NCBI GenBank assembly: GCA_947501265.1
Contig: CANMVY010000003.1
Span: 204,676-268,675, forward strand
Length of the DNA: 64,000 bases
Direction of reading: 5' to 3'
From: Bacteroidota bacterium
GTDB lineage: Bacteria > Bacteroidota > Bacteroidia > UBA7662 > CANHCV01
The notes beneath the pieces were generated by a model. The model ran no database searches. It saw nothing but the letters and a program-made list of their open reading frames with translations, and was not told the origin of the DNA. Shown piece by piece: positions 4,849-63,722 of the stretch (its first letter is position 1; each line of letters begins with the position of its first letter). The position numbers and the translations under genes are program-made.

Positions 4849-7395
4849 ATGGGCCTGATAGGAAATCCACTTCATTTCAGAGGTAACCAAAAAAAGTTTT
4901 TTCGGTTTGGTGTTGCCTTTGGATTTGTTTTTCCTATTCTGGGCACTGTTTTGGAATGTTCCTTGGCCAATGAGGGTTCATTTTCTTGGATGGAGTGTTT
5001 GGAGGTGCAAGCAAGTCGACCAGGAATTTGGCTGACGGATTTAGCGCCCATCATTATGGGATTCCTTTCCGCTTTTGCCGGGCGCTTACTCGATGAAGTC
5101 GAAAGAAAGAAGTCTCTAGCCGATAAAAGGTACGAGGAAATGCTCTCTTTGCGCCAAATTGCCGATCGTGCAAATCATGCAAAAAGCGAATTTTTGGCCA
5201 ACATGTCCCACGAAATTCGAACCCCCATGAATGCCATCATTGGCATGAATTACCTTCTAAGAAAAACCGAACTTTCCGATAAACAAGCGGAATATAACCA
5301 TAAAATTGAGGTTTCCGCCAAAAGTCTTTTGCGAATCATCGACGATATCCTCGATTTTTCCAAAATTGAGGCTGGTAAGCTTACCCTTGAAAATACGCCT
5401 CTTTTTATTGAAGAGTTGGTTCAGGAAGTTGCGGATACCGTGAATGTTAAGCTTCAGCGAAAGAAAGAGGTAGAATTGGTTACTCAAATTGATACAGATA
5501 TTCCAGCTATCATTTTAGGAGACACCATTCGATTGCGTCAAGTTCTATTGAATTTGGCTGACAATGCTGCCAAATTTACACATCAAGGAGAAATTGCCAT
5601 CCGAGTAAAGTTGGTTAGAAAGGTAGATTACGGAATTTTTCTTCATTTTAGCGTTAAAGACTCTGGAATTGGTATTTCCAAAGAACAAGCTAGAAAATTG
5701 TTTTCTCCTTTTCAGCAGGCTGATCTATCTACTACCAGAAAGTTTGGTGGAACCGGTTTAGGATTGGCCATTTGCAGAAAAATTGTAGAAATGATGGACG
5801 GAGAATTGGAAATGGAAAGTTCCCTGGGTAAGGGTTCCGAATTTCACTTCAATGCATTTTTCTCTTTACCCGTAGAAGAAGCTTTGCCCATTGCATTTTC
5901 AGAATCAATTCTGAAAGGTAAAAAAGCTCTGCTTGTAGATGATTCAGAAAGTGCCCGAATGGTTCTTGCTGAAATGTTGGGTACCATGGGGTTTCATGTT
6001 TTGGTGGCCAAAGATGCATACGAGGCCATTGAAATGTACGAAGCCGAGGATTTGGCACATCATCCCATTACACTTTTGGTGGTCGATTGGCAAATGCCAG
6101 GAATGGATGGTTTGCAATTGGTTCGTGAATTAAAAGCCAAACAAGGCCAAGAAATTCCGGCTATCCTTATGGTAACTGCGTACGGCCTTGATAGTGTGAA
6201 AGACGCTGCAAAAAATAAAGAGGTTGATGGAGTCATGTTGAAACCCATCAATCAAAGCGCTTTGCACGATACGTTGATTGAAATTCTGCATCTTAAACAA
6301 GGTAAAGACGCCATTAAACCTAAATTTGACCTCGATACGAATGTTTTGAAAGAGCATTTATTGGGAAAGAAAGTGCTTTTGGTAGAAGACAAAGAAATTA
6401 ACCGGGAATTGGCAACGGAACTATTGAACGAAGTTGGCATAAATGTCGAATCCGCTGAAAATGGAAAAATTGCCATTGAAATGGTTGAGCAAAATGCCTA
6501 TGATTTGGTTTTGATGGATATTCAAATGCCTGAAATGGATGGATTAACGGCCACGAAAATGATCCGCGCAACCGGTCGATTTTCAAATCTCCCAATCCTT
6601 GCGATGACGGCCCATGCCATGAAAGGCGAAGCCGAAAAAAGTATGGCTGCGGGGATGAATGAACACATCACCAAACCCATTGATCCCGTTTTTCTCTACA
6701 AAACCCTGTTTAAATACCTCTGCCCGCATATCACCATAGAGGATTTGAACAGTTCAGCCATGAGCAACTCCAATGAGAAAAATGAGCAGGAGGAGCAACT
6801 GATTTTGTCCATTCCAGGGATTGATACGAAAAATGGATTGAACAGAATTGGAAATAAGGCAGATGCCTATATCCGATTGTTGCAAACGTTTGCCAATACC
6901 TACAAATCCTCCGTTTCGGAAATTCAATCTTATTTCGATCTTCAAAAAAAATCTGAACTGGCTTCTTTCCTACATACTTTAGCCGGTGTTGCTGGGAATT
7001 TGGGAGCTCAAAAAGTGTATCAAATTTCCTACTCCCTTTCGGTTCGATTGAAAAATGAATCAAACGACTTCAATTGGGAGGACTTTTCCTTGGAAATTCA
7101 AGATTTGTTATCCGAAATGGAATCGATTATTTCTGAAATTCAGAAAATTGATGTCTCGGAAGGAAAAGGTCATGTTCCCCTTACCGATTTAACTCCAGAA
7201 GATATTCGATTGAAAATGGAGGAGTTAAAAATCTCCATTGAAGAAAATGACCCGGGTGCAGTTGATATTTGTCGCGAAGTTTTGAGTTCCTCTAACCTAA
7301 CGTCAATTCAAAAAAATGTTCTTCTTGAATTGCAAACCCTCTTAGCGGCGTTTGAATTTGATCAAGCGATGGTCATTATTCAGAAATTACCGTGA
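4849..7395 (+). CDS. Hybrid sensor histidine kinase/response regulator with two REC domains and a C-terminal Hpt
   Basis: H-box ANMSHEIRTPMNAIIGM. HATPase G-boxes DSGIGI and GGTGLGLAI. Two receiver domains (LLVDDSESARM with DWQMPGMDG; LLVEDKEINREL with DIQMPEMDGL). C-terminal Hpt-like helix bundle. Two short N-terminal TM helices. Confidence 0.85.
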   Translation: MGLIGNPLHFRGNQKKFFRFGVAFGFVFPILGTVLECSLANEGSFSWMECLEVQASRPGIWLTDLAPIIMGFLSAFAGRLLDEVERKKSLADKRYEEMLSLRQIADRANHAKSEFLANMSHEIRTPMNAIIGMNYLLRKTELSDKQAEYNHKIEVSAKSLLRIIDDILDFSKIEAGKLTLENTPLFIEELVQEVADTVNVKLQRKKEVELVTQIDTDIPAIILGDTIRLRQVLLNLADNAAKFTHQGEIAIRVKLVRKVDYGIFLHFSVKDSGIGISKEQARKLFSPFQQADLSTTRKFGGTGLGLAICRKIVEMMDGELEMESSLGKGSEFHFNAFFSLPVEEALPIAFSESILKGKKALLVDDSESARMVLAEMLGTMGFHVLVAKDAYEAIEMYEAEDLAHHPITLLVVDWQMPGMDGLQLVRELKAKQGQEIPAILMVTAYGLDSVKDAAKNKEVDGVMLKPINQSALHDTLIEILHLKQGKDAIKPKFDLDTNVLKEHLLGKKVLLVEDKEINRELATELLNEVGINVESAENGKIAIEMVEQNAYDLVLMDIQMPEMDGLTATKMIRATGRFSNLPILAMTAHAMKGEAEKSMAAGMNEHITKPIDPVFLYKTLFKYLCPHITIEDLNSSAMSNSNEKNEQEEQLILSIPGIDTKNGLNRIGNKADAYIRLLQTFANTYKSSVSEIQSYFDLQKKSELASFLHTLAGVAGNLGAQKVYQISYSLSVRLKNESNDFNWEDFSLEIQDLLSEMESIISEIQKIDVSEGKGHVPLTDLTPEDIRLKMEELKISIEENDPGAVDICREVLSSSNLTSIQKNVLLELQTLLAAFEFDQAMVIIQKLP

Positions 7396-39068: not shown

Positions 39069-39086
39069 AAACGTTTATAAACGTTT
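39069..39086. repeat. 18-bp perfect palindrome AAACGTTTATAAACGTTT
   Basis: Self-complementary. Near-copies at 49604-49619 and 49624-49641. Confidence 0.6.
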
Positions 39087-40136: not shown

Positions 40137-41180
40137 TTACTTAAGAAATCCGAAATTCCGCGGCACAATCCCTGCCATTAAACTATCGGTCAACGCCGCG
40201 TTCTGGTTCACCCGGTAAATGGTTCCTCGAGAACTGAAGTCTTTGGCATCTGAAATCCACCAGTGCTGGTCAGTTTCATTGTAACCCATTCCGTAAATTC
40301 CGCCGATTCCAGCATGGGAAAACCAAGGTGTTTCGGTAACTTGGGTAGATCCAGCAGACATTAACATTAATTTCCCATCTAACGCATAACCCAATTGATT
40401 GTTAGCATTTTTGCACAATAGGGTAGGATGGTAAGTCATTTGAGAGAAAACCGAGCGGCTGGTTTCGCTACCAAATTCAAAGAAATGAAGCGATCCAGCC
40501 GTTTCTTTTCCCTTCCAGCTCGGATTTCCACCGCATAAAACTGCAAATTTGCTTCCGCCTAAAGCTACTATGCTGTTGGGATTCTGATTGACTTCCATGG
40601 TTTTCTCCAAGGATTGATTTGCGATGTTGACGTAAGAAATGGTGCTGTCGCCACTATTGACCACCGCAAGGTGAGTGCCATTCACCACCGCCATTTTACT
40701 TGGAGTTACCCCCACCGAAATTCGCTTCAAAATGGTTCCGGCATAGGGGTCAACGATCACAACATTTCCACGATCTCCGTTGAAATTCACCCATTCCGTC
40801 ACAAATAACTTCCCATCCCAATAGAGAATTTCATCCGGTAAATTCAAACCGTATTGGGTTCCTTCCGATTTAAACGTTTTTCGGTTAACGATTTCAATTT
40901 TATTGCTGTTGTTCACCACAATGAAGACCTGATCATTACTGAAAGCCACACTTTGAGCGATGCTCCCAATGGGGCGATTGTTCACCGAGTCAAAAACCTG
41001 ATTCCAAAGTTCCTTCGTACTCGAGTTGTAAAATTGGATGTTACCTGAACCGCCCGAAAAAAGGCCCTCATTCACAATAATGACTCCTTGAGAATAATCA
41101 CGATCATGACCTGAATGTCCACGATCACGACATGCGAACATCGTTAATCCAACGAGTAAGCTAAAAATTATTTTCTTCAT
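40137..41180 (-). CDS. YncE-like beta-propeller cell-surface lipoprotein (DUF5074-like), partner of the upstream TonB-dependent receptor
   Basis: Lipoprotein signal MKKIIFSLLVGLTMFAC. Repeated VxVN/IxVVN beta-blade motifs. ATGA overlap with the receptor gene. Confidence 0.6.
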   Translation of the reverse strand: MKKIIFSLLVGLTMFACRDRGHSGHDRDYSQGVIIVNEGLFSGGSGNIQFYNSSTKELWNQVFDSVNNRPIGSIAQSVAFSNDQVFIVVNNSNKIEIVNRKTFKSEGTQYGLNLPDEILYWDGKLFVTEWVNFNGDRGNVVIVDPYAGTILKRISVGVTPSKMAVVNGTHLAVVNSGDSTISYVNIANQSLEKTMEVNQNPNSIVALGGSKFAVLCGGNPSWKGKETAGSLHFFEFGSETSRSVFSQMTYHPTLLCKNANNQLGYALDGKLMLMSAGSTQVTETPWFSHAGIGGIYGMGYNETDQHWWISDAKDFSSRGTIYRVNQNAALTDSLMAGIVPRNFGFLK

Positions 41181-42966
41181 AAAAATTGGTATTGAATTTG
41201 AATTTGTGTTTGATATCGAGGGGCAGGTAAATAAGGCATGTACCAAACCTGATTCCCCAAAATATTTTGAATGCCTAATTTCCCGCTTAATCCTTTGGGC
41301 AATTTCTCACTGAAATCTATCCATAGATTAACTTGTCCTTGGTTCGGAAGCTGAACGGAAGCGTCGGTAGTAACATTGCGTTTTCCTTGGGCTACCATGC
41401 TCAATTCGCCCTTCAGCCCTTTCCAATTCGTAGCCCATTTCGACTGAATTTTCCAATCGGGTTGATAAAGAAGAGGAATCCAAGCATTTTTCCATTGGCG
41501 TGGTTGCTGGTAAGTTCCATTGAATTCGCCTACAAATCGACCCACACGAATTTGATTGATTTTCCATTCAAGGCCAATACTGCGGGATTGACCAACATTT
41601 TCAGCTTTCCAAAATCCGGCGGAGGTGGGAATCCACAGGATTTGATTGGATAGAAATGTGCCGAAAATGGTTGCTTCAAAATTTTTAACCACTCCTCCCC
41701 ATTCAGCATTCCAACCCTCTTCAGGTTTTAACGAAGGATTTCCGCCAGGAACCCAATACCAATCATTCAAGGTAGGGAATCGAAAAACTTGTCCGATATG
41801 AATTTTCGTCGTAAAGTTAGCTGCCTTTTTTTGAATAAAACCATCCAAAATCCAGGGTGAAAACGATTGTTGGAATTGTTCTTTTCGAACGAGAAAATGG
41901 CCTTGAATGCTGGAATCCTCACTCTCAAAGTTCCACTTTCCTAGTGCATTCCATCTCAATCCATTGAAATCTTGGGCATAATAGGGAGAACGAGCCCAAT
42001 ACCCTTGCCAACCGTTTTCTAAAATAAATAAATGACGTCCTTTGTGAATTTTCCAACGCTGCTGGCTACCCAACCAACCGCAGTGATTGGTATCGTTGAG
42101 TGAAATTTTCGCATCTTCGTATTGATTCCATTCATAACTTCCAAACTCCTCCAATTCCCATTGGTGGTTATTTTTTCTCCAAATTTGCCCATCTTGGAAA
42201 CGAATCATTTTATCGGTTTGTATCGCAGTTCCTTTTCCAGCAACTACAGAAATGGGCAAATGTCGAATGGTATTGGAGGCATGTAACCAACCTTGTTTTC
42301 CCCAACTCATTTGAAATGCCGTTCGCTTCATTTGGGAATTTTCCAGTCGGTTGTTTGGGCTTAGCCCGTTAAGAGATTTGGGAAGGGAGTAATTGAGTTG
42401 ATTTTCTTCCTTAAAGAAGGCGAGATTTAAATTCTTACCCAATGAAACTTTTGTCCCTATGGCGTATGAGCCAAAACTTCCACCTTGCAGGAGAATTGAA
42501 TTTCGCTTGGATTGATCGGGAAGGAGTTGAATATTTCCTCCAACAGCTCCGCCTCCAAAGCTACCGCCAGAGCCTCCCGGTTGAAGGTGAATGGCCCCTA
42601 AGAAGAAGGCCGGAATCAGATTCAAATCGAACACTCCATTGATGGGACTATTGATGGGTTGATTTCCCAGAAGGATTTGGGTGCCAACTCCGGGTAAACC
42701 TCGAAAAGATGCGGTTTGAAGGGCCATCGGGCCGTAACCCCGAATGGTTGCCATGGAGTTCTGGTCTAAAAGGGAAGCAGCTGAAAGGGCGTCCATGCTC
42801 AAAGAGTTGGAGCGATCTAAGGTGGTTGCTGGTGCTGCGGTTGGATAGCTTTTGGGTTTCCGCCGAGTAATGATATCGGCAGGGGCAAGGGTGTCGATTT
42901 TCTGAGAGAAAACCGAAAGAAATCCCGAAGCGAAAATCGCCACGAGCAGGAGTTTTTTTAGCATGT
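41177..42966 (-). CDS. btuB: TonB-dependent receptor, BtuB-like (cobalamin-riboswitch controlled)
   Basis: Signal peptide MLKKLLLVAIFASGFLSVFSQ. Plug and beta-barrel architecture. C-terminal aromatic ...YQF. Cobalamin riboswitch in its 5' leader. Confidence 0.8.
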
Positions 42967-42994
42967 TTTTTCGTTTGGGCATCTCAATCCACGA

Positions 42995-43168
42995 AGATGC
43001 AGGCCTCACATCGCTTTCGGCAGGTCTTCCGACTTTCCTCAGTATTTGTTCCCTTCCCATTCCGGTAGAACAGTGGTACGAACAAATCCTTTCGAGGATT
43101 ACGGCAGCGGGACTGTTCAGGATTTTCACCTGATTCCCTTTTCATCCATGCTTCCATGGAACCGAAAA
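42995..43168 (-). promoter_or_regulatory. Cobalamin (B12) riboswitch
   Basis: Minus strand reads AGGGAATCAGGTGAAAATCCTGAACAGTCCCGCTGCCGTAATCC...GTACCACTGTTC...AGTCGGAAGACCTGCC. This is the GGGAA-GGTG-AA-TCC / CCCGC-CGTAA core, a CCACTG element and a B12 box. Confidence 0.85.
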
Positions 43169-43175
43169 CTGAAAC

Positions 43176-43183
43176 AAAGGTAA
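43176..43183 (-). promoter_or_regulatory. Putative -7 box (TACCTTTG on minus strand) driving the B12 riboswitch/btuB transcript
   Basis: TAnnTTTG match a few nt upstream of the riboswitch 5' end. Confidence 0.4.
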
Positions 43184-46878: not shown

Positions 46879-49329
46879 ATGAAAAATTTTTGGTTCGGGA
46901 TCACCTTACTTTTCCCAGCCTTGGCTTTCAGCCAATTCAAAATTACCGGGAATGTAGGGACTTTGGAAGAAAATAGCCGGATGATTGAAAATGCTCTCGT
47001 TCAGGAGAACGGGAATCTCTCAAACACCGTAAAAACCAATGAAAATGGATATTTTGAAATCAATGTATCCTCGCTTCCTTCTAAACTGAAGTTTTCAAGG
47101 ATTGGTTTTCAAACCTTTCTCCTTGAAATCAGAGAAGGTGGAAACATTTCGGTCGGTTTGGCCTATCAACCTCTAGAAACGGAGGAAGTTCTTATCACGG
47201 CAGGAACCAACGTAAGAAAAAATACTCCCGTTGCGGTTACAAATCTGACATCCAAAGACATTCAACCGCTTAATCTCGGGCAAGACATTCCGTTTCTTCT
47301 TCGATTCACTCCTTCGGTGGTGGTTACCTCCGATAATGGAACAGGAATTGGTTACACCGGAATGCGTATTCGTGGTTCCGACGCAACCCGAGTGAATGTT
47401 GCGATCAATGGAGTGCCGTTGAACGATCCTGAAAGTCAGGGTGTTTTTTGGGTAAACATGCCCGATTTTGCTAGTTCTCTTTCTAACATTCAGATTCAGC
47501 GCGGGGTGGGTTCTTCGGTAAACGGTGCAGGTGCATTTGGAGGTACCGTTAACTTGCGTACAGATCAACCCAATCATTTGAACTATGCGGAGTACAGCAT
47601 TTCAGGGGGATCCTTTGGTACGCTTAAGAATACCTTGAAATTCAACGTGAAAACAAATAATTTTCGTTGGAACCTGGAAGGTAGGGTTAGCGATATTCGA
47701 TCAGAAGGCTACATCGACCGAGCCTCTTCTCTCTTGCAAAGTTATTATTTTGCTGCCACCCGTTCCGGTTCCAAATCGGTTCTTAAAATCATGCAGTTTT
47801 CTGGAAAAGAAAGAACGTACCAAAGTTGGTACGGCACGCCGGAATCTCGGGTAAAAAATGACTCTTTGGGAATGATTGCCTATGCTGATCGGAATTATTT
47901 GTCGGACAAAGACCGCAGTAATTTGTTGAACTCGGGTAGATCGTACAATTATTACACCTATCAAAATGAAGTGGATCAATACCAGCAGGACCATGCTCAG
48001 ATTCATTATGGGTATCGATTTAATTCGAAACTTAACTTTCAAACGGCATTGCATTTTACGCATGGGGCCGGGTTTTTTGAGCAGTTCAGAAATGATGATG
48101 ATTTTTCCAACTACCTATTGCCTGCTGTGGTGGTTGGATCTGACTCCATTACTTCCGGAGATTTTATTCGTCGCCGTTGGTTGAATAACTACTTTGGTGG
48201 ATTAACTTTTTCGTTGGACAAAACCTCTACGTTATTCGGGAAAAAGTTTCACGGAATTTTAGGAGGTGCTGTTAACTCCTACACTGGAAACCATTTTGGT
48301 GAAATCATTTGGGCCGAGTGGGCTTCGGTGGCGCCCTTAGGAAAAGAGTATTACCGTTCTCGAGCACGAAAAGTAGATGCCAACATCTACTACAAAGCCG
48401 AGCATCAAGTTTCTGAAAAATGGAACACTTGGTTGGATGTTCAGGTAAGAAGGGTGCTTTATACGGGAACTGGAATCGATAACACCTTGTTACCGGCCGT
48501 TTTCAATGGCGATTATTTGTTCGTTAACCCCAAGGCCGGATTAAATTATCAGCTTTCAAAGAACCAACGTTTGTTTGCATCGGCAGCTGTTGGACAGAAA
48601 GAGCCTATTCGTTCCGATTTTGTTGATAACGCAACTGGAACCGTCCCCAATCCCGAAAAAATGCTCGATTTGGAGTTGGGATATTCCAAAAGAACCCAAA
48701 AATGGATGGTGGAAGCCAACGCGTATTGGATGATTTATCGAGATCAGTTGGTGTTAACCGGCGCGTTGAATGATGTGGGTGCTCCTTTGAGAATCAATGT
48801 TCCCGAATCATTCCGCCGAGGACTTGAAATTCAAGCCGGTTGGAGCATCATTCCTAACAAATTGGAAATCATGGGAAATGTTACCCTAAGTCAGAATAAA
48901 ATTCCGCATTTTACCGAGATGGTTTTCAATTACGATAACATGGCCTACGATTCTACCAAGCATCATCATACCGACATTGCCTTTTCACCGGCTATGGTTG
49001 GAAGTGCTCAATTGGCATGGTCGCCTATGAAGAACATGAAGGCGGTTTGGATGAGTCAACGCGTTGGGAAACAGTACTTAGATAATACCTCGAGCGAAAG
49101 CAGAAAAATGGATGCTTATTGGGTGAATGACTTGCGATTCGAATACAATTTTGGTAGGGTTGGAGATGTTCAAATACGAATGAATGCCTTGGTAAACAAT
49201 GTTTTGAATGCTCAGTTTTCTTCCAACGGTTACACGTTTTCTTATGTTTCAGGAAGCCGGGTTACAGAGAATTTCTTCTATCCGCAAGCCGGAAGGAATT
49301 TACTCGTTGGGGTGACGTTAGGATTTTGA
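46879..49329 (+). CDS. TonB-dependent receptor (TPP-riboswitch regulated; predicted thiamine or thiamine-precursor uptake)
   Basis: Signal peptide. N-terminal carboxypeptidase-regulatory-like domain. Plug motifs (NVAINGVPLND). C-terminal ...VGVTLGF aromatic residue. Confidence 0.85.
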   Translation: MKNFWFGITLLFPALAFSQFKITGNVGTLEENSRMIENALVQENGNLSNTVKTNENGYFEINVSSLPSKLKFSRIGFQTFLLEIREGGNISVGLAYQPLETEEVLITAGTNVRKNTPVAVTNLTSKDIQPLNLGQDIPFLLRFTPSVVVTSDNGTGIGYTGMRIRGSDATRVNVAINGVPLNDPESQGVFWVNMPDFASSLSNIQIQRGVGSSVNGAGAFGGTVNLRTDQPNHLNYAEYSISGGSFGTLKNTLKFNVKTNNFRWNLEGRVSDIRSEGYIDRASSLLQSYYFAATRSGSKSVLKIMQFSGKERTYQSWYGTPESRVKNDSLGMIAYADRNYLSDKDRSNLLNSGRSYNYYTYQNEVDQYQQDHAQIHYGYRFNSKLNFQTALHFTHGAGFFEQFRNDDDFSNYLLPAVVVGSDSITSGDFIRRRWLNNYFGGLTFSLDKTSTLFGKKFHGILGGAVNSYTGNHFGEIIWAEWASVAPLGKEYYRSRARKVDANIYYKAEHQVSEKWNTWLDVQVRRVLYTGTGIDNTLLPAVFNGDYLFVNPKAGLNYQLSKNQRLFASAAVGQKEPIRSDFVDNATGTVPNPEKMLDLELGYSKRTQKWMVEANAYWMIYRDQLVLTGALNDVGAPLRINVPESFRRGLEIQAGWSIIPNKLEIMGNVTLSQNKIPHFTEMVFNYDNMAYDSTKHHHTDIAFSPAMVGSAQLAWSPMKNMKAVWMSQRVGKQYLDNTSSESRKMDAYWVNDLRFEYNFGRVGDVQIRMNALVNNVLNAQFSSNGYTFSYVSGSRVTENFFYPQAGRNLLVGVTLGF

Positions 49330-49350
49330 TCAAGATGCCCTCGAAAAATC

Positions 49351-49381
49351 GGGGGCTTATTTCTTCCACTTTAAGGAGCGG
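49351..49381. repeat. Direct repeat copy 1 (31 bp), a pseudo-3'-end of gldD
   Basis: GGGGGCTTATTTCTTCCACTTTAAGGAGCGG. Identical at 29 of 31 positions to 49898-49928. Reverse complement encodes ...SLKWKK plus stop. Confidence 0.8.
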
Positions 49382-49897
49382 AATCTTAAAAGGAGTTACT
49401 TGAGTTTTTCGTTTCGTCTAGTAATAGATTTTTTTTAAATGGAATTGACTTAACTGGTTAATAAACTTTAACTTAACTCAGGTGCCGCCCTTCGGTAAAC
49501 TCAGGGAGCCGTTGCCCTAAAAATAATAAATTTTTCCATGGGGGATAAATCCCCACCCCCACCGAGAGCAATTTACGGCTTTTTTCGGGGTTAGCCGTAA
49601 ATGAAACGTTTATAAACGTAAGTAAACGATTATAAACGTTTACGATACGACTACGATCATGAAATGCCGTAAATTTGACTTGGGTAGGGGGCGGTAGCCC
49701 CCGTTTCCTCGAGCTTTTGAATTTTTTTCGAAAACAATATTTGCCCCCGTTTACGACTATGGGCGGTCCCTGAGGCAACTCGAAGGGAGCGGGGCGGTGT
49801 CTTCGAGAGCCTCAGACACCGAAAGTGAGAGCCTCAGACACCGGAAATAAGACCCTCAAACACCGTACATATTCCGGTTTCCTCAAAGGCAATTGCT
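49382..49897. mobile_element. About 516-bp gene-free structured insert (MITE-like or remnant of a site-specific integrated element) flanked by 31-bp direct repeats
   Basis: No credible ORF. Imperfect terminal inverted repeats (49479-49517 vs 49761-49799). Hairpins GGGGATAAATCCCC, ATTTACGGC/GCCGTAAAT and GGGGGCGGTAGCCCCC. Two copies of the AAACGTTTATAAACG palindrome. Tandem 22-mers GAGAGCCTCAGACACCG at 49805-49865. Confidence 0.45.
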
Positions 49898-49928
49898 GGG
49901 GGCTTATTTCTTCCACTTCAAGGAGCCG
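49898..49928. repeat. Direct repeat copy 2 (31 bp), the true 3' end of gldD
   Basis: GGGGGCTTATTTCTTCCACTTCAAGGAGCCG. Overlaps the gldD stop codon. Confidence 0.8.
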
Positions 49929-50485
49929 ATCAATTCAATGACGTCCTTTGAAACGTATTGGGTATAAGGTTTAAGCGAATCGGCATTGGGTTCGGTGAAG
50001 AAATAAAGAGCACCTCGAAGGAAATGATTGGTGCTATCGGTCACCCAAAATTGCATGGGCGAGGCTGCATTGCCAGAAACCGAAAACAATAGCCCATGCA
50101 CTCGATTTTCATCGTTATGAATGACGTTTTCCGAAATGCCATTGGCTCTTTGCTGGTGTTTGCTGGTGAAGAGGTAGGCATCGTTCATCATTTCCTGCAA
50201 TTTTGATTTACCTTCGAATTGCTTGTAGCTCAAATGGATTTTCGCTTTGATGGTTGGATACTCGATGTCCAAAAAATAATCTCCCGGGTTAGATGGTTTT
50301 TTCCGAGGGTAAGAAGATTTAGCGATGTTTGCTGAAAAGGGAATCGAATCGGCCAAAGGTTGGTACCCAGCCGGAGGCAATTCCACTTTCGGATAGCCGA
50401 TGGGTTTAGGCGCATAAGAATCGTTGGTGCACGCACCCAATAGAATGGCAGCGCCGAGGCTACATCGATAAATGTACTTTTTCAA
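49904..50485 (-). CDS. gldD: Gliding motility lipoprotein GldD
   Basis: Sits immediately downstream of gldE in the conserved mutY-ssb-gldE-gldD order. Lipoprotein signal MKKYIYRCSLGAAILLGAC if a TTG start at about 50485 is used; the track ORF extends to 50569 inside gldE. Confidence 0.6.
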   Translation of the reverse strand: MKKYIYRCSLGAAILLGACTNDSYAPKPIGYPKVELPPAGYQPLADSIPFSANIAKSSYPRKKPSNPGDYFLDIEYPTIKAKIHLSYKQFEGKSKLQEMMNDAYLFTSKHQQRANGISENVIHNDENRVHGLLFSVSGNAASPMQFWVTDSTNHFLRGALYFFTEPNADSLKPYTQYVSKDVIELIGSLKWKK

Positions 50486-51749
50486 TTTTTTTGTCGTTAG
50501 CTTTTGCGATGCAAAGTTGCAATTTTTCGTATTGGTAACAATCGCCTTCATTTGGAATGATTTTGGCAATTTCCAAAATTAACCCTCCTAAAGTTTCTAC
50601 CTCACCTTCAAACGGTGCAAAGTAATCTTCGCGCAAATGAAAATATTTGATGAGGTCACCAAGGCTAGCCGAGGCATTCACCTCCCACTGATGATCAGAA
50701 ATTTCTTTGATCCACGATTCAACCACATCATGCTCGTCGTTGATTTCCCCGAAGATTTCTTCCAAAACATCTTCCATGGTCACCAATCCTTCCACTTCTC
50801 CGTATTCATTTAAGACCACGGCCATGTGGTTGCGCTGAAGCTGCATATCACGAAAAAGATCGTCGATTTTCTTGGTTTCGGGTACCATGAAAACCGGACG
50901 TACCAAGGATTTCCATGACTGATTGGGTTTGAAGTATAAATCTTTTACATGAAGAACACCCGTAAATTCTTCGTAATCGTCTTTGCGAATGGGTACGCGA
51001 GAGAATTTCTGCTCGGCAACGAATGCGTGAACTTCTTCTAGGGTAGCGCTTTCTTTGAGGTAAACGATTTTGTGATGGGGCTGCATGATTTGCGCTGCAG
51101 TTCTGGTTCCAAAATTCACCACTCCTTTTAGCAGCGCTCTTTCTTCCAAATCGGTTACGTCGTTTTCAAAAGCAATTTCAATGGCTTGATTTAAATCGTG
51201 AACGCTTACCGAGGCCGACCGTTGCTCGCTGGTTTTATCAATAAATCGGGTGGTAGAAGCCAAAAGGCGAGCAGGGTAGTAGTTGATTCGAAGCATCCAG
51301 CCAATCAAAGGATATCCCCAACGAATGGTTTTTATTCGATGGTGGTAGGCATAATGCTTGGGTACAACTTCTGCGAAAACAACAATCAATAGCGTTGCTA
51401 CGGTAGATTGCAACAAAAAGTGCCAGAAATTATTGGGATCGAGCGGTAGTGTTTTGAAGCCAATGTAATACGTTGCAACAACCGATGAAATGTTGAGAAT
51501 ATTGGAAGTGAGCAACAGGGTTCCAATCAAAATTCGGGTTGAAAACGGATCCGAATCCAACAGCTTTTTTAACCGCTCATCAATTTTTTCTGACAAAAGC
51601 GATTGTTTTTCATCGGATTTCAAAGAGAAAATGGCCACTTCCATGGAAGAGGTCACTGCCGAAAGAAGAATAAGTAGAATTAGAACTGCTAGACCGATCA
51701 AAAGAGGGGTAAGCAGAATACCGGGCAGGGCAGGGGAAGGGTCGTCCAA
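50460..51749 (-). CDS. gldE: Gliding motility-associated protein GldE (DUF21-CBS-CorC/HlyC family)
   Basis: N-terminal DUF21 TM domain, paired CBS domains and a C-terminal CorC_HlyC domain. Position upstream of gldD. Confidence 0.8.
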   Translation of the reverse strand: MDDPSPALPGILLTPLLIGLAVLILLILLSAVTSSMEVAIFSLKSDEKQSLLSEKIDERLKKLLDSDPFSTRILIGTLLLTSNILNISSVVATYYIGFKTLPLDPNNFWHFLLQSTVATLLIVVFAEVVPKHYAYHHRIKTIRWGYPLIGWMLRINYYPARLLASTTRFIDKTSEQRSASVSVHDLNQAIEIAFENDVTDLEERALLKGVVNFGTRTAAQIMQPHHKIVYLKESATLEEVHAFVAEQKFSRVPIRKDDYEEFTGVLHVKDLYFKPNQSWKSLVRPVFMVPETKKIDDLFRDMQLQRNHMAVVLNEYGEVEGLVTMEDVLEEIFGEINDEHDVVESWIKEISDHQWEVNASASLGDLIKYFHLREDYFAPFEGEVETLGGLILEIAKIIPNEGDCYQYEKLQLCIAKANDKKIEKVHLSM

Positions 51750-62163: not shown

Positions 62164-62192
62164 ACCCATGGAATTATCGCAAGAATCAAGTT

Positions 62193-62212
62193 GTGGGCTA
62201 AATGTGGGCTAG
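62193..62212. repeat. Tandem TGTGGGCTA(A/G)A repeats (2 copies)
   Basis: TGTGGGCTAAATGTGGGCTA. The same 11-mer occurs three times at 62397-62429. Confidence 0.7.
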
Positions 62213-62213
62213 A

Positions 62214-62254
62214 ATTAAAAAGAAGAAGCCTCACGATGTGAGGCTTCTTCTTTT
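62214..62254 (-). terminator. Rho-independent terminator following the tRNA 3' fragment (minus strand)
   Basis: AGAAGAAGCCTCAC-GATG-GTGAGGCTTCTTCT hairpin with a T-run on the minus strand. Confidence 0.65.
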
Positions 62255-62282
62255 TGGTGATCCCGCTGGGACCCGAACCCAT
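62255..62282 (-). other. Displaced tRNA 3'-end fragment (T-arm, acceptor 3' strand, ACCA): likely attachment-site remnant of an integrated element
   Basis: Minus strand reads ATGGGTTCGGGTCCCAGCGGGATCACCA. Upstream sequence lacks D and anticodon arms and the matching 5' acceptor strand GATCCCG. Confidence 0.55.
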
Positions 62283-62396
62283 TATTTACTATTCATCCTT
62301 ATTCATCCTTATTTTATTCTAAATGACTTTAAATCAGCAAATTAATTGTTATTAAAAATGATCAAAGATGAATGGTGTTGATAAATAATAAGGAGA

Positions 62397-62429
62397 TGTG
62401 GGCTAAATGTGGGCTAAATGTGGGCTAAA
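62397..62429. repeat. Tandem TGTGGGCTAAA repeats (3 copies) directly upstream of the integrase gene
   Basis: Three perfect 11-bp units. Candidate integrase/Xis arm-type binding sites. Confidence 0.7.
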
Positions 62430-62459
62430 ATTTTTTAAGTTTGTACCAAGTTAATCACT

Positions 62460-63722
62460 ATGGCAACGGTAAAATTTATCATTCAAGCAAACTCAAATAA
62501 TTCCAGGGTTTACCTAAGGTTCCGTGATGGAAGAGGGGTAGATATTAAGTTAAAAACCGATTATATCATCTCTGTAAATCAATGGGATCTTCAGAGAGGA
62601 TTCCCTAAAAGAGCTGGAGATGAAATAGCAAAGTTTATCAATGCAGAATTAAAAACACTCGAAGCAACGATTTATGAAAGATATAATCGAACGGATAGAT
62701 CGGTTGTAATTGATACAAATTGGTTAAAAGAAATTGTCAATACAGGTCAAAGTGTTAATCATGTCGTCAAAAAGAAAGATTCTGCGTTGTTTTCTAGCCA
62801 AGTCGATAAGTATGTATTAGCCAAAAGGAAATTGGTTAAAGCATCTGCTATAAGAAAATATAAACGAACCAATGAAATCGTTCAAGAAATTGGAAAATTA
62901 TTGCAAAAAAAAATCAAAGTAAAGGATATTGATTGGGATTTTAAGGCACAATTTGATGATTATTGTAACGTTCAAGCGTACAGTCCTTCCTATATTCGTA
63001 AAGTGTTCAAGAATATCAAAACAATTGCTGAGTTTGCTTTTATCCAAGATGGAGTAGAGATTCATCCAATGCTAAGGGGGAGGGTGCCTTATTCAGAAAG
63101 TGAAAACAAGGCGATTTTTCTTTCATTTGAAGAGATTGAGAGAATTGAAAACTTTGATTTTGAAAATGAAAGGTTAAATAATGTCCGAGATTGGTTAATC
63201 ATTAGCTGTGGAACAGGTGCGAGGATCTCGGATTTTATGAATTTTTCACCTCAAATGATTGAAAAGTATATTTCAAACGGAAAAGTGGTAAGGGATATCA
63301 AGTATCGCCAAGTGAAAACAAATCAACAAATATTGAGTGGAATTTATGAAAATACTCCAATGTATAGAACTTTAAAACGTTTGGGTTGGACGTTCCCTCC
63401 CAAGATATCAAGTCAGAAATATAATGATTATCTTAAAGAGATTGGTAAATTAGCCGGATTGGATGACGTAGTTGAAGGGGATAAAATAGATCCGAATACC
63501 AAACGAAAGGTAAGGGGACGTTTTAAAAAGTTTGAGTTATTAACCTCCCATATTGGAAGACGAAGTTTTGCAACCAACTATTATGGGAAAATCCCAACCT
63601 CAGATTTAATGGTATTAACTGGGCATAAAAGTGAAGGAATGCTTTTGAAATATATCCGAAAAAGCGGAGAAGAGAAAAATGTTGAAGCGGTCAATAAAGT
63701 AAGAAAATGGTTACATTCATAA
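62460..63722 (+). CDS. Site-specific tyrosine integrase (Bacteroidota CTn/ICE-type with N-terminal arm-binding domain)
   Basis: N-terminal MATVKFIIQANSNNSRVYLRFRDG, typical of Bacteroidota integrase arm-binding domains. C-terminal catalytic region with HIGRRSFAT and LTGHKSEGMLLKY (R..H..R..Y). Confidence 0.85.
   Translation: MATVKFIIQANSNNSRVYLRFRDGRGVDIKLKTDYIISVNQWDLQRGFPKRAGDEIAKFINAELKTLEATIYERYNRTDRSVVIDTNWLKEIVNTGQSVNHVVKKKDSALFSSQVDKYVLAKRKLVKASAIRKYKRTNEIVQEIGKLLQKKIKVKDIDWDFKAQFDDYCNVQAYSPSYIRKVFKNIKTIAEFAFIQDGVEIHPMLRGRVPYSESENKAIFLSFEEIERIENFDFENERLNNVRDWLIISCGTGARISDFMNFSPQMIEKYISNGKVVRDIKYRQVKTNQQILSGIYENTPMYRTLKRLGWTFPPKISSQKYNDYLKEIGKLAGLDDVVEGDKIDPNTKRKVRGRFKKFELLTSHIGRRSFATNYYGKIPTSDLMVLTGHKSEGMLLKYIRKSGEEKNVEAVNKVRKWLHS

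What the first reader, a model, noticed from the sequence alone, without database searches (positions are those of the whole stretch)
49330..49930. 516-bp structured, gene-free insert flanked by 31-bp direct repeats duplicating the 3' end of gldD
The last 8 codons of gldD plus about 7 nt downstream (GGGGGCTTATTTCTTCCACTT[C/T]AAGGAGC[C/G]G) occur twice, 547 bp apart. The upstream copy still reads RSLKWKK-stop on the minus strand. A 31-bp duplication of a gene end is far longer than a transposase target-site duplication. It is the signature expected from site-specific recombination into the 3' end of a gene. The intervening DNA has no plausible ORF but is very rich in secondary structure. It has imperfect about 38-bp inverted repeats (49479-49517 / 49761-49799) that could be TIRs of a MITE. 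It has three GCCGTAAAT-containing hairpins, a GGGGGCGGTAGCCCCC hairpin, two tandem 22-mers (GAGAGCCTCAGACACCG) and two copies of the AAACGTTTATAAACG palindrome. It could be a decayed or miniature integrative element, or it could encode a structured non-coding RNA. I could not match it to tmRNA, RNase P, SRP RNA or a retron msr/msd by eye.
Basis: seen in the sequence. Interest (0 to 1): 0.7.

Follow-up and report, generated by a model that had tools for sequence, protein, structure and literature searches.

The report
Gene-free repeat insert behind gldD
A 515-bp non-coding block built from this lineage's own small palindromic repeats sits in the 28-bp gap between two converging genes, bracketed by a duplicated copy of the gldD gene end; related strains have the same site empty or filled with other DNA, so it is a small passenger-less mobile insert, not an RNA gene.

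Summary
Two 32-nt direct repeats (49351-49382 and 49898-49929, 30/32 identical) bracket 515 bp with no credible ORF and no Rfam match.

It is a real, derived insertion.
- The TBDT|gldD junction is only 27-28 nt ("empty") in one strain of the same species and in an ~80%-identical outgroup lineage.
- Other strains carry a 748-nt variant, an unrelated ~290-nt insert, or a 2-kb allele with a protein gene at the same junction.

The block is a mosaic.
- A ~175-bp palindromic, MITE-like core occurs at six or more other loci in a related MAG.
- REP-like 22-24-nt hairpin units are present, one of them triplicated.
- Two arms were seen only at this locus.

The repeat duplicates DNA that both genes use. 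It holds gldD's last 8 codons and stop codon, which also form the T-tract and half the stem of the TBDT terminator.

In a MAG of a second species (~85% identical flanks), the insert and its TBDT-side repeat are 95-100% identical to the window. The switch falls at the repeat edge.

I read this as a recombinase-less miniature integrative module that recombines through the repeat, att-like. Long target-site duplication is the main rival. There is no support for a structured RNA. Interest is modest.

The parts
46879..49329 (+). TonB-dependent receptor gene (816 aa), converging on gldD
   Evidence: NCBIfam partial TonB-receptor hits. Pfam Plug and TonB_dep_Rec_b-barrel on the identical protein.
49337..49366 (+). 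Intrinsic terminator of the TBDT gene ('W-type'): hairpin GCCCTCGAAAAATCGGGGGC (49337-49356) plus T-tract TTATTTCTTC (49357-49366). The right half-stem and the T-tract lie inside repeat copy A.
   Evidence: Terminator scan. The same hairpin abuts the gldD stop in the empty alleles L007, L077 and L081.
49351..49382 (.). Direct repeat copy A (TBDT side). It is a non-coding duplicate of the gldD 3' end and reads RSLKWKK-stop on the minus strand.
   Evidence: (D3). It is 23/23 identical in L015 (E1_MAG), where it follows a different hairpin. L079 and L080 carry the same copy with one difference at the T/C site.
49383..49478 (.). Right arm of the insert, seen only at this locus in the DNA examined. 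It contains two TTNACTTAACT repeats.
   Evidence: (D12). It is 96/99 identical in E1_MAG but only about 72% identical in that MAG's conspecific L059.
49479..49517 (.). REP-like hairpin unit (CCCTTCGGTAAACTCAGGG), the inverted partner of 49761-49799
   Evidence: Units of the same type occur singly and in tandem in other loci.
49535..49712 (.). Palindromic MITE-like core. It has imperfect terminal inverted repeats (CCCCCTACCCAAGTCAAATTTACGGC / GCCGTAAATTGCTCTCGGTGGGGG), G5/C5 end hairpins and a central array.
   Evidence: It folds as one long hairpin on both strands, z = -5.6 and -6.0. Six contigs of MAG E1_MAG_00028 carry it, one of them twice. Logan contigs from both sides end at or inside it.
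49604..49642 (.). Four phased 10-nt units (AAACGTTTAT), equivalent to two 18-nt operator-like palindromes 20 nt apart. This is the most conserved part of the core.
49687..49702 (.). GGGGGCGGTAGCCCCC hairpin at the core's edge. In other alleles a 23-nt REP-like unit is inserted in its loop.
   Evidence: L006, L011, L012b.
49761..49799 (.). REP-like hairpin unit (CCCTTCGAGTTGCCTCAGGGAC on the minus strand). It is also the breakpoint of the 2-kb gene-carrying allele.
   Evidence: L078 rejoins the window at 49761.
49805..49870 (.). 22-nt minisatellite, about 3 copies. This module is replaced by an unrelated ~205-nt module in 'L006-type' strains.
   Evidence: (D1).
49868..49897 (.). Left arm (CATATTCCGGTTTCCTCAAAGGCAATTGCT). 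It is 30/30 identical in the 82%-identical E species but altered at 4-5 positions in one conspecific strain type (L003).
49898..49929 (.). Direct repeat copy B: GGGGGC followed by the functional last 8 codons and stop of gldD
49904..50485 (-). gldD (gliding-motility lipoprotein, 193 aa), last gene of the mutY-ssb-gldE-gldD row
   Evidence: TIGR03512, E=2.5e-57. Gene calls.

Best explanation
The block is a derived, non-coding, non-autonomous insertion in the very short junction between the convergent TBDT and gldD genes.

Ancestrally, a single hairpin and its T-tract lay between the two stop codons, 27-28 nt apart. The T-tract is the reverse complement of gldD's last codons.

The inserted DNA carries no gene. 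It is assembled from small palindromic repeat families of this Bacteroidota lineage:
- a ~175-bp MITE-like core;
- REP-like 22-24-nt hairpin units that insert into hairpin loops and amplify in tandem;
- two arms seen only at this locus.

The 31-32-bp repeat duplicates exactly the stretch that both genes need. After insertion, copy A still terminates the TBDT transcript and copy B still encodes the GldD C-terminus.

I think the unit most likely entered, and can leave, by conservative recombination through this sequence. That means an attP x attB-type (Campbell) event on a small circular form carrying one repeat copy. The event would be catalysed in trans, by a tyrosine recombinase encoded elsewhere or, less specifically, by host homologous recombination. 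That makes it a recombinase-less miniature integrative module.

Afterwards the resident small repeats kept remodelling it, which explains the many alleles.

Shown here: the insertion is derived, the repeat is real, the block is a mosaic, the core is multi-copy, the unit is shared between species with a breakpoint at the repeat, and there is no coding or RNA-family signal.

Inferred: the circular intermediate, the enzyme, and the direction of transfer.
For: (1) Empty sites.
- L007 is from the same species (gldD 99% identical). It joins window 50600..49898 directly to 49382..48629 through a single repeat copy. It is a MEGAHIT k141 contig, so the junction should come from reads rather than from collapse of a 31-nt repeat (my inference from the k-mer size).
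- L077 and L081 are from a ~80%-identical outgroup lineage. Their junction is 28 nt with the same hairpin.
- The sister lineage L076 (~90% identical) lacks the unit.

(2) The repeat is far beyond chance: 32 nt against a maximum of 18 nt in shuffles.

(3) Copy A doubles as the TBDT terminator's T-tract and half-stem.

(4) The unit crosses species with a sharp breakpoint.
- In E1_MAG (L015) the TBDT end is 88.5% identical to the window and 97.6% identical to its conspecific L059.
- From copy A inward, L015 is 23/23, 96/99, 51/53 and 63/66 identical to the window, but only 70-90% identical to L059.
- Mismatches are 8/241 in the insert against 14.8% over 7.2 kb of flank, Fisher p = 1e-8.

(5) On the gldD side of the E species (L011, L059), the left arm is 30/30 identical to the window. 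gldD itself is 82% identical, with four-fold degenerate sites near saturation at 25/69.

(6) The differences between copies A and B sit at the element-proximal end of copy A (GAGCGGAATC against GAGCCGATC). They are the same in the window, L015 and L080. That pattern is expected for imperfect attP/attB homology and is not expected for an initially perfect target duplication.

(7) The GGGG(G)C next to copy B accompanies the insert into chromosomes whose own hairpin lacks it (L011, L059, L080).

(8) The block's outer ends have no clear terminal inverted repeats by eye and no TGT...ACA ends (the repeat finder, reported no such pair).

(9) No transposase or integrase lies inside the block or next to the dispersed core copies.
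Against: - No autonomous partner element with the same att sequence was found. Viral-contig scans for the repeat, the arms and the core gave 0 hits. Phage and plasmid BLAST gave nothing. The metagenome scan added only one relative.
- No circular junction or tandem form was seen.
- The repeat has no obvious pair of inverted core-binding sites (by eye).
- The gldD end of E1_MAG itself was not recovered, so point (4) leans on its conspecifics L011 and L059.
- In L011 and L059, copy A is degenerate (16/23), separated from the arm by 100 extra nt, and resembles that species' own gldD end at two diagnostic positions. That fits a target duplication as well as an att event.
- The E-type hairpin was seen only with filled alleles, so part of the history may be replacement of the whole spacer rather than integration between the repeats.
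- The site also took an unrelated insert with only a ~9-nt repeat (L076). A gene-bearing allele (L078) lacks copy A. So the site is a general hotspot.
- Precise loss between 31-bp repeats needs no dedicated recombinase.
Confidence: 0.5

Rival explanations
1. Transposition with an unusually long target-site duplication. A non-autonomous (MITE-type) element was inserted by a transposase that makes cuts staggered by ~23-31 nt, as the IS1202 group does. The two repeat copies were identical at first and have drifted since.
For: - IS1202-group elements make 16-28-bp target duplications (PMC10132070, read).
- The repeat abuts the insert on both sides.
- The inner core is a genuine dispersed palindromic repeat.
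- In L011 and L059 both repeat copies look like that species' own gldD end at two diagnostic positions.
- An unrelated insert at the same junction has a short (~9-nt) duplication, so transposable DNA does land here.
Against: - The outer ends of the block have no clear terminal inverted repeats and lack the TGT...ACA ends of IS1202/Tn7-like elements.
- The dispersed core copies are not flanked by long duplications.
- Copy A in E1_MAG is 23/23 identical to the window's copy A, while the gldD end of its conspecifics differs from it at about 4 positions.
- The copy A / copy B differences cluster at one end and are shared by all alleles.
- Under this model the GGGGGC on both sides would be a coincidence.
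- No transposase was found in any locus examined.
Confidence: 0.2
2. Scar of a larger integrative element. A prophage, genomic island or ICE once integrated at the gldD 3' end through a tyrosine integrase. An internal deletion removed all its genes and left only the two attP arms, which later collected local repeats.
For: - The repeat length and its position at a gene's 3' end are typical of integrase att sites (established knowledge).
- One allele of the same site carries 1.87 kb with a 462-aa Fib_succ_major gene (L078 and L066). This shows that larger DNA can occupy the site.
- A tyrosine integrase island lies 12.5 kb away in the window.
Against: - None of the ~30 contigs examined shows an integrase or other mobility gene at this site.
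- The gene-bearing allele lacks copy A and the hairpin. It breaks at a REP-like unit, not at the repeat.
- The nearby integrase sits beside what I read as a tRNA 3' fragment, with unrelated repeats.
- The ~0.5-kb unit is conserved as such across two species.
Confidence: 0.15
3. No insertion mechanism at all. The spacer is an old, fast-evolving intergenic region, or a functional structured RNA or 3' UTR. The repeat arose by a small local duplication, and the empty alleles are deletions between the repeats.
For: - Most sampled contigs of the species are filled.
- Precise deletion between 31-bp repeats is easy.
- The region folds much better than shuffles, z about -4.7 to -6.
- The insert is more conserved between species than four-fold sites of gldD and gldE.
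Against: - The outgroup lineage (L077, L081) has the compact empty junction, and the sister lineage (L076) lacks the unit.
- Phylogenetic affinity switches at the repeat edge.
- No Rfam family reaches threshold. The best match is a 35-bit fungal snoRNA model against a gathering score of 60.
- Both strands fold equally well, and 8 core copies give a covariation term of +0.39 with 1 of 33 pairs compensated.
- A tandem duplication followed by an insertion exactly at the boundary between the two copies is improbable (my estimate: a few per cent).
Confidence: 0.1

Closest known systems
CIMEs (cis-mobilizable elements, e.g. CIME19258 and CIME302 of Streptococcus thermophilus at the 3' end of fda)
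   Same: No recombinase of their own. Bounded by attL/attR direct repeats that duplicate the 3' end of a protein gene. Presence/absence polymorphism at one fixed site. Thought to move only with help in trans. (My background knowledge of the family. The reviews listed, PMC5704250 and PMC7563491, were not read.)
   Different: CIMEs are kb-sized, carry ORFs, and derive recognisably from a known ICE whose integrase acts on them. Here the unit is 0.5 kb, has no ORF, is made of dispersed repeats, and no partner element or integrase is identified.
MITEs, in particular BrickBuilt of Porphyromonas gingivalis (a MITE that trapped a 23-nt minisatellite)
   Same: Phylum Bacteroidota; non-coding; strictly intergenic; multi-copy. 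Conserved leader and tail with inverted repeats plus an internal 22-23-nt tandem array. No transposase inside (PMC4596501). The inner core here matches this description.
   Different: No sequence similarity was looked for against BrickBuilt itself. The whole 515-bp block has no clear terminal inverted repeats at its ends, and its flanking repeat is 31 bp, not a short target duplication. The core's own target duplication could not be defined.
IS1202-group insertion sequences (long target-site duplications)
   Same: Direct repeats of 16-28 bp flank the element (PMC10132070). This is the only well-documented bacterial transposition class in this length range.
   Different: Those elements are 1.3-1.7 kb, encode a TnsB-like DDE transposase, and have 24-26-bp terminal inverted repeats ending in TGT...ACA. 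None of these features is present here.
REP/BIME-type extragenic palindromes
   Same: Short GC-stemmed hairpin units near gene 3' ends, in both orientations and in tandem clusters, that overlap or replace terminators (background from the abstract of PMC3733652, and my own knowledge).
   Different: The unit sequence (CCCTTCG-N-CTCAGGGAC) is different. No RAYT-type transposase was sought or found. REPs do not explain the 31-bp duplication.
Xer-dependent elements (IMEX) and pdif modules
   Same: Modules without a recombinase, bounded by ~28-bp recombination sites and moved by a host tyrosine recombinase. (My background knowledge; PMC10132070 mentions dif modules.)
   Different: The repeat here is a gene end, not a dif-like site. 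By eye it has no two 11-bp inverted arms around a 6-8-bp spacer.

Membership tests
MITE | Terminal inverted repeats at the element's ends | tested here: not met
   For the whole 515-bp block: the ends AATCTTAAAAGGAG... and ...CAAAGGCAATTGCT are not clearly inverted copies of each other by eye, and the repeat finder reported no such pair. For the inner core (49535-49712): met, with ~25-nt imperfect inverted ends and a long hairpin fold.
MITE | Multiple dispersed copies in a genome | tested here: inconclusive
   Core: six contigs of E1_MAG_00028, one of them with two copies. Only one copy lies in this 64-kb window. Logan contigs break at or inside it, which suggests more copies in the source species. 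Whole block with both arms: seen only at the gldD site.
MITE | Short target-site duplication typical of a known transposase family | tested here: not met
   The flanking repeat is 31-32 nt (23 nt in E-type alleles). No flanking duplications of 16 nt or more were found around the dispersed core copies.
MITE | No coding capacity | tested here: met
   No conserved ORF and no Pfam hit. Indels that are not multiples of three separate the alleles.
Integrative element / CIME (att-bounded, recombinase in trans) | Direct repeats (attL/attR) at both ends that overlap the 3' end of the target gene and keep the gene intact | tested here: met
   The GldD protein is identical in filled and empty alleles (P0123 in L003-L010).
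Integrative element / CIME (att-bounded, recombinase in trans) | Empty target site (attB) with one repeat copy in relatives | tested here: met
   L007, L077 and L081.
Integrative element / CIME (att-bounded, recombinase in trans) | One repeat copy travels with the element (attP) | tested here: inconclusive
   Copy A in E1_MAG is identical to the window's and unlike the gldD end of its conspecifics. However, E1_MAG's own gldD end was not recovered, and L011/L059 show the opposite pattern.
Integrative element / CIME (att-bounded, recombinase in trans) | A cognate site-specific recombinase or related autonomous element using the same att | tested here: not met
   None was found in about 30 contigs of the locus, in viral contigs, or in phage and plasmid collections. 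The integrase at 62460-63722 is tied to what I read as a tRNA-fragment att site. Whole genomes could not be searched.
Integrative element / CIME (att-bounded, recombinase in trans) | Excision to a circle and re-integration | not testable with these tools
   Needs reads or an experiment.
IS1202-group derivative | TGT...ACA outer ends and 24-26-bp terminal inverted repeats | tested here: not met
   Ends read. Criteria taken from PMC10132070.
Known structured RNA family (Rfam 15) | Covariance-model match at or above the gathering score | tested here: not met
   No match in 49250-50000. The best is a 35.4-bit snoRNA model against a gathering score of 60.
Novel structured RNA | Strand-specific fold with compensatory base changes among homologues | tested here: not met
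   Both strands fold equally well. Covariation term +0.39, with 1 of 33 pairs compensated. Expression was not testable.
Diversity-generating retroelement (VR/TR pair at a gene's 3' end) | Template repeat near a reverse transcriptase, with adenine-specific differences between the two repeats | tested here: not met
   The two differences between the copies are T/C and G/C on the plus strand (A/G and C/G in gldD sense), so only one involves an adenine. The adjacent genes are TBDT, gldE, ssb and mutY. The rest of the window was not scanned for a reverse transcriptase.

The most novel reading that the evidence does not exclude
The unit would represent an undescribed class of 'att-MITEs'. These would be sub-kilobase, gene-free integrative modules built from lineage-specific palindromes. 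They would carry only an attachment sequence that mimics a gene's 3' end, be shuttled between species by a recombinase encoded elsewhere, and seed hypervariable hotspots at convergent gene junctions.

A related possibility concerns the CCGTAAAT-tagged palindromes with phased AAACGTTTAT units. They could be the binding or processing sites of an unrecognised DNA-handling protein (an HUH/RAYT-like enzyme or an HTH regulator) that drives this plasticity.
Probability: 0.15. Interest if true: 0.6.

Novelty: new variant of a known kind. Interest (0 to 1): 0.38.

Why it matters
If the att-type reading is right, a mobile unit can be reduced to an attachment site plus selfish repeats, with no cargo and no enzyme, and still spread between species. 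That would sit between MITEs, which depend on transposases, and CIME- or IMEX-type elements, which depend on recombinases.

It also shows a simple rule. When two convergent genes share their 3' signals in about 30 bp, the insertions that survive are those that duplicate that stretch.

There are practical consequences too:
- The locus is a strain-typing marker, with at least six alleles in one uncultured freshwater Bacteroidota clade.
- It is a recurrent break-point in metagenome assemblies.
- It produces spurious ORF calls: 81-86-aa 'genes' were called inside it in several assemblies.

None of this changes what is known about gliding motility. GldD itself is unaffected.

Tried and rejected
- **Rfam.** Gathering thresholds over the whole window and E-value mode over 49250-50000 gave only a sub-threshold fungal snoRNA and isrK noise. 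ARAGORN found no tRNA or tmRNA there.
- **Coding potential.** The 101-aa ORF and the small ORFs called in other assemblies have no Pfam hits and are not conserved.
- **Phage or plasmid origin.** Nothing in the INPHARED or PLSDB collections in distant mode. Nothing in IMG/VR for the repeat, the double palindrome, the core or the arm. The six IMG/VR hits to the bare 18-nt palindrome have unrelated flanks; most sit just upstream of apparent gene starts.
- **Metagenome scan with the repeat pattern.** 43 of 44 hits were chance matches. One (L059) was a relative.
- **Long flanking duplications around the dispersed core copies.** None found.
- **A longer decayed gldD fragment downstream in L011.** Only a 19/23 match was found. 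On its own it is not better than shuffles; only its position is meaningful.
- **Relation between the L076 insert and this one.** None beyond the shared terminator.
- **Mobility genes next to core copies.** The neighbours are housekeeping genes.
- **Sigma-70 promoter scan.** 0 sites. A Bacteroidetes-type -7 box (TAAATTTG, 49668-49675) is present, but I judged the spacing to any -33-like TTTG wrong (about 25 nt) and dropped the idea.
- **A 12-nt inverted match of the repeat inside the insert (49844-49855).** It is part of the degenerate third 22-mer, is not conserved in L011, and was treated as chance.
- **DGR, CRISPR-type ectopic integration, Xer/dif and tandem-duplication models.** Considered and set aside for the reasons given in the membership table and the rival explanations.
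Full report
**1. What is in the sequence**

The region between the TonB-dependent receptor gene (46879-49329, plus strand) and gldD (49904-50485, minus strand; TIGR03512, E=2.5e-57) is 574 nt long. gldD is the last gene of a mutY-ssb-gldE-gldD row.

Two direct repeats of 32 nt, 30/32 identical, lie at 49351-49382 (copy A) and 49898-49929 (copy B). In 60 shuffles of the region, the longest repeat with 2 or fewer mismatches was 18 nt.

Copy B contains GGGGGC plus the last 8 codons and stop of gldD. Copy A keeps the same reading (RSLKWKK-stop) but is non-coding.

The 515 bp between the copies have G+C 43.7%, against 41.1% for the window.

The structure is not an assembly artefact. An ENA assembly reproduces 8.4 kb around it at 100% (L062). 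Logan contigs from several runs reproduce the gldD side at 98.9-100%.

**2. It is an insertion, and the site is a hotspot**

I used the exact GldD and TBDT proteins, and members of their 90% clusters, to fetch about 30 contigs of this junction. The distance from the TBDT stop to the gldD stop varies as follows.

| Allele | Distance | Contigs | Notes |
|---|---|---|---|
| Empty, same species | 27 nt | L007 | gldD 99% identical to the window |
| Empty, outgroup (~80% identical) | 28 nt | L077, L081 | |
| Unrelated insert, sister lineage (~90%) | 323 nt | L076 | ~290-nt insert with a ~9-nt repeat |
| Window type | 574 nt | window, L062 | |
| Variant, same species | 748 nt | L080 (L079 has the TBDT side only) | different terminator hairpin, 'E-type', and a different internal module |
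| E species (82-88% identical) | 798 nt | L011, L059 | |
| Gene-bearing, same species | 2013 nt | L078 (L066 matches its gldD-side end) | 1.87 kb with a 462-aa Fib_succ_major gene; rejoins the window at 49761; lacks copy A |

Sources.

All three empty alleles, and also L076, have the same compact layout. The TBDT stop is followed by about 8 nt, then the hairpin GCCCTCRARAAATCGGGGSY, and then directly the reverse complement of gldD's last codons.

The terminator scan calls that hairpin plus TTATTTCTTC as the TBDT terminator. So the T-tract of one gene's terminator is the C-terminal coding sequence of the other gene.

The empty state is therefore ancestral. The 31-32-bp repeat is a duplication of the one stretch that both genes need. 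After the insertion, copy A still terminates the TBDT transcript and copy B still encodes the GldD C-terminus.

**3. What the insert is made of**

A scan of one genome per species (GTDB) for 21 nt of the central part found six contigs. All are from a single MAG, E1_MAG_00028. One is the homologous TBDT/gldD locus (L015). The others are unrelated intergenic regions between housekeeping genes, and several lie at contig ends.

Alignment and a profile search define a ~175-nt palindromic core (window 49535-49712). It has imperfect inverted ends containing GCCGTAAAT, G5/C5 end hairpins and a nearly invariant centre. The centre is four phased AAACGTTTAT units, which equal two 18-nt palindromes.

The core folds as one long hairpin equally well on both strands (z = -5.6 and -6.0). 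Eight copies show no covariation. Logan contigs from both sides of the window's locus stop at or inside this core, as expected if it is repeated in that genome too.

Around the core are REP-like units of 22-24 nt (CCCTTCG-N-CTCAGGGAC):
- one related unit triplicated as the 22-nt array;
- in other alleles, a 23-nt unit inserted in the loop of the GGGGGC...GCCCCC hairpin;
- 16-, 23- and 24-nt tandem arrays at other loci.

Only the two arms (49383-49478 and 49868-49897) were not seen anywhere else. The block is therefore a mosaic of small selfish repeats. A described analogue is BrickBuilt of P. gingivalis, a MITE that trapped a 23-nt minisatellite (PMC4596501).

**4. How it got there**

The key evidence is where phylogenetic affinity changes.

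E1_MAG (L015) belongs to the same species as L059: 97% identity over 6.2 kb and 97.6% in the last 87 aligned nt of TBDT. It is about 85-88% identical to the window in flanking genes.

From copy A inward, L015 becomes 23/23, 96/99, 51/53 and 63/66 identical to the window, and only 70-90% identical to L059. The switch lies between the hairpin and copy A. Mismatches are 8/241 in the insert against 14.8% in the flank (p = 1e-8).

On the other side, in L011 and L059, the left arm is 30/30 identical to the window. gldD is 82% identical, with four-fold sites near saturation at 25/69.

So the repeat-bounded DNA has been exchanged between species, with endpoints at or within the repeats. General homologous recombination in 82-88%-identical flanks would not be expected to give this.

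Three further details point the same way:
- The differences between copies A and B cluster at the element-proximal end of copy A and are identical in all alleles.
- The GGGG(G)C next to copy B accompanies the insert into chromosomes whose own hairpin lacks it.
- The block's ends have no clear inverted repeats and no TGT...ACA termini.

I therefore favour conservative recombination through the repeat (attP x attB, Campbell-type), with the enzyme supplied in trans. That makes the unit a recombinase-less miniature integrative module.

**5. Caveats and rivals**

- No partner element, integrase or circle junction was found.
- E1_MAG's own gldD end is missing.
- L011 and L059 carry a degenerate copy A that looks like their own gldD end, and it sits 100 nt away from the arm.
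- The E-type hairpin was seen only with filled alleles, so whole-spacer replacement may be part of the history.
- The site also accepts unrelated DNA.

A long target-site duplication is known for the IS1202 group (16-28 bp; PMC10132070) and remains possible. It fails the end-sequence tests. A scar of a larger island is also possible, but no allele shows mobility genes. The RNA reading has no support.

**6. Verdict**

The object is ordinary in kind: selfish non-coding DNA at a hypervariable junction. Its unusual feature is a long, functionally meaningful duplication. I rate it a new variant of a known kind, with modest interest.

Noticed in passing
window 62180-63722 (to the window's end): A tyrosine integrase gene (62460-63722; Pfam Phage_int_SAM_5 and Phage_integrase) is preceded by five GTGGGCTAAAT-type repeats (62190-62215 and 62396-62430), a terminator hairpin, and a ~27-nt stretch that I read as the 3' end of a tRNA on the minus strand (about 62257-62284). 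ARAGORN finds no whole tRNA there. It looks like one end of a separate genomic island integrated at a tRNA gene and running off the window.
   Followed up: partly
window 39069-39086: A perfect copy of the 18-nt palindrome AAACGTTTATAAACGTTT lies between the rpsT (S20) stop codon and its terminator hairpin. It is the only other copy in the window. It could be a solo remnant of the core or a protein-binding site. Most of the unrelated IMG/VR contigs carrying the same 18-mer have it just upstream of apparent gene starts (L070-L075).
   Followed up: partly
L078 4952-6823 (NCBI GCA_041168205.1); the end of the same segment also in L066: In some strains of the same species, 1.87 kb replace the right part of the insert, copy A and the TBDT terminator. 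The segment carries a 462-aa gene with a Fib_succ_major domain. The breakpoints are right at the TBDT stop codon and at the REP-like unit at window 49761.
   Followed up: partly
L076 4985-5275 (ENA ERZ27263785; two similar places not shown): In a ~90%-identical sister lineage, an unrelated ~290-nt non-coding insert sits at exactly the same junction, with a ~9-nt repeat (TTATTTTTT / TTACTTTTT). It contains one ATCCGTTTATAAGCGGAT palindrome reminiscent of the core's centre.
   Followed up: partly
L015 6905-6958, L079 4328-4378, L080 2756-2806, L059 about 2655-2700: There is an alternative TBDT terminator hairpin ('E-type': ATTTAATGGTAGG...CCTACCGTAAAT). It was seen only in alleles that carry the insert, in two species. 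It ends in the same CCGTAAAT motif as the core's inverted ends, so it may itself be a small mobile palindrome.
   Followed up: partly
L016 4611-4674 and 4881-4958; L017 212-259; L012 3092-3208: Next to core copies in E1_MAG_00028 there are tandem arrays of 16-nt (GCGGTAGCCCCCGTTT, 3 copies), 23-nt and 24-nt REP-like units. L012 has two copies of a 31-nt unit 86 nt apart. A 23-nt unit is inserted in the loop of the GGGGGCTACC/GCCCCC hairpin in L006, L011 and L012 relative to the window.
   Followed up: partly
window 43002-43181 (minus strand): Cobalamin riboswitch (Rfam RF00174, 108 bits), apparently upstream of the ORF at 41177-43129, which was not annotated here.
   Followed up: no
L006 2905-3165, L068 1204-1449, L080 3225-3470, L011 7127-7318: Public gene calls of 63-86 aa lie inside the repeat mosaic. 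The two tested (L006, L011) have no Pfam hit. The mosaic differs between alleles by indels that are not multiples of three. They are probably spurious ORFs created by the repeats.
   Followed up: partly
L002 about 6800-6890: In a ~70%-identical lineage, what I read by eye as a tRNA gene on the opposite strand follows gldD, then a different neighbour gene. So the TBDT-gldD adjacency is not universal.
   Followed up: no
L012 3221-3684: One dispersed core copy lies directly downstream of a small two-gene pair. By eye the 84-aa product looks like a RelE/ParE-type toxin preceded by an antitoxin-like ORF. These were not checked against any library.
   Followed up: no
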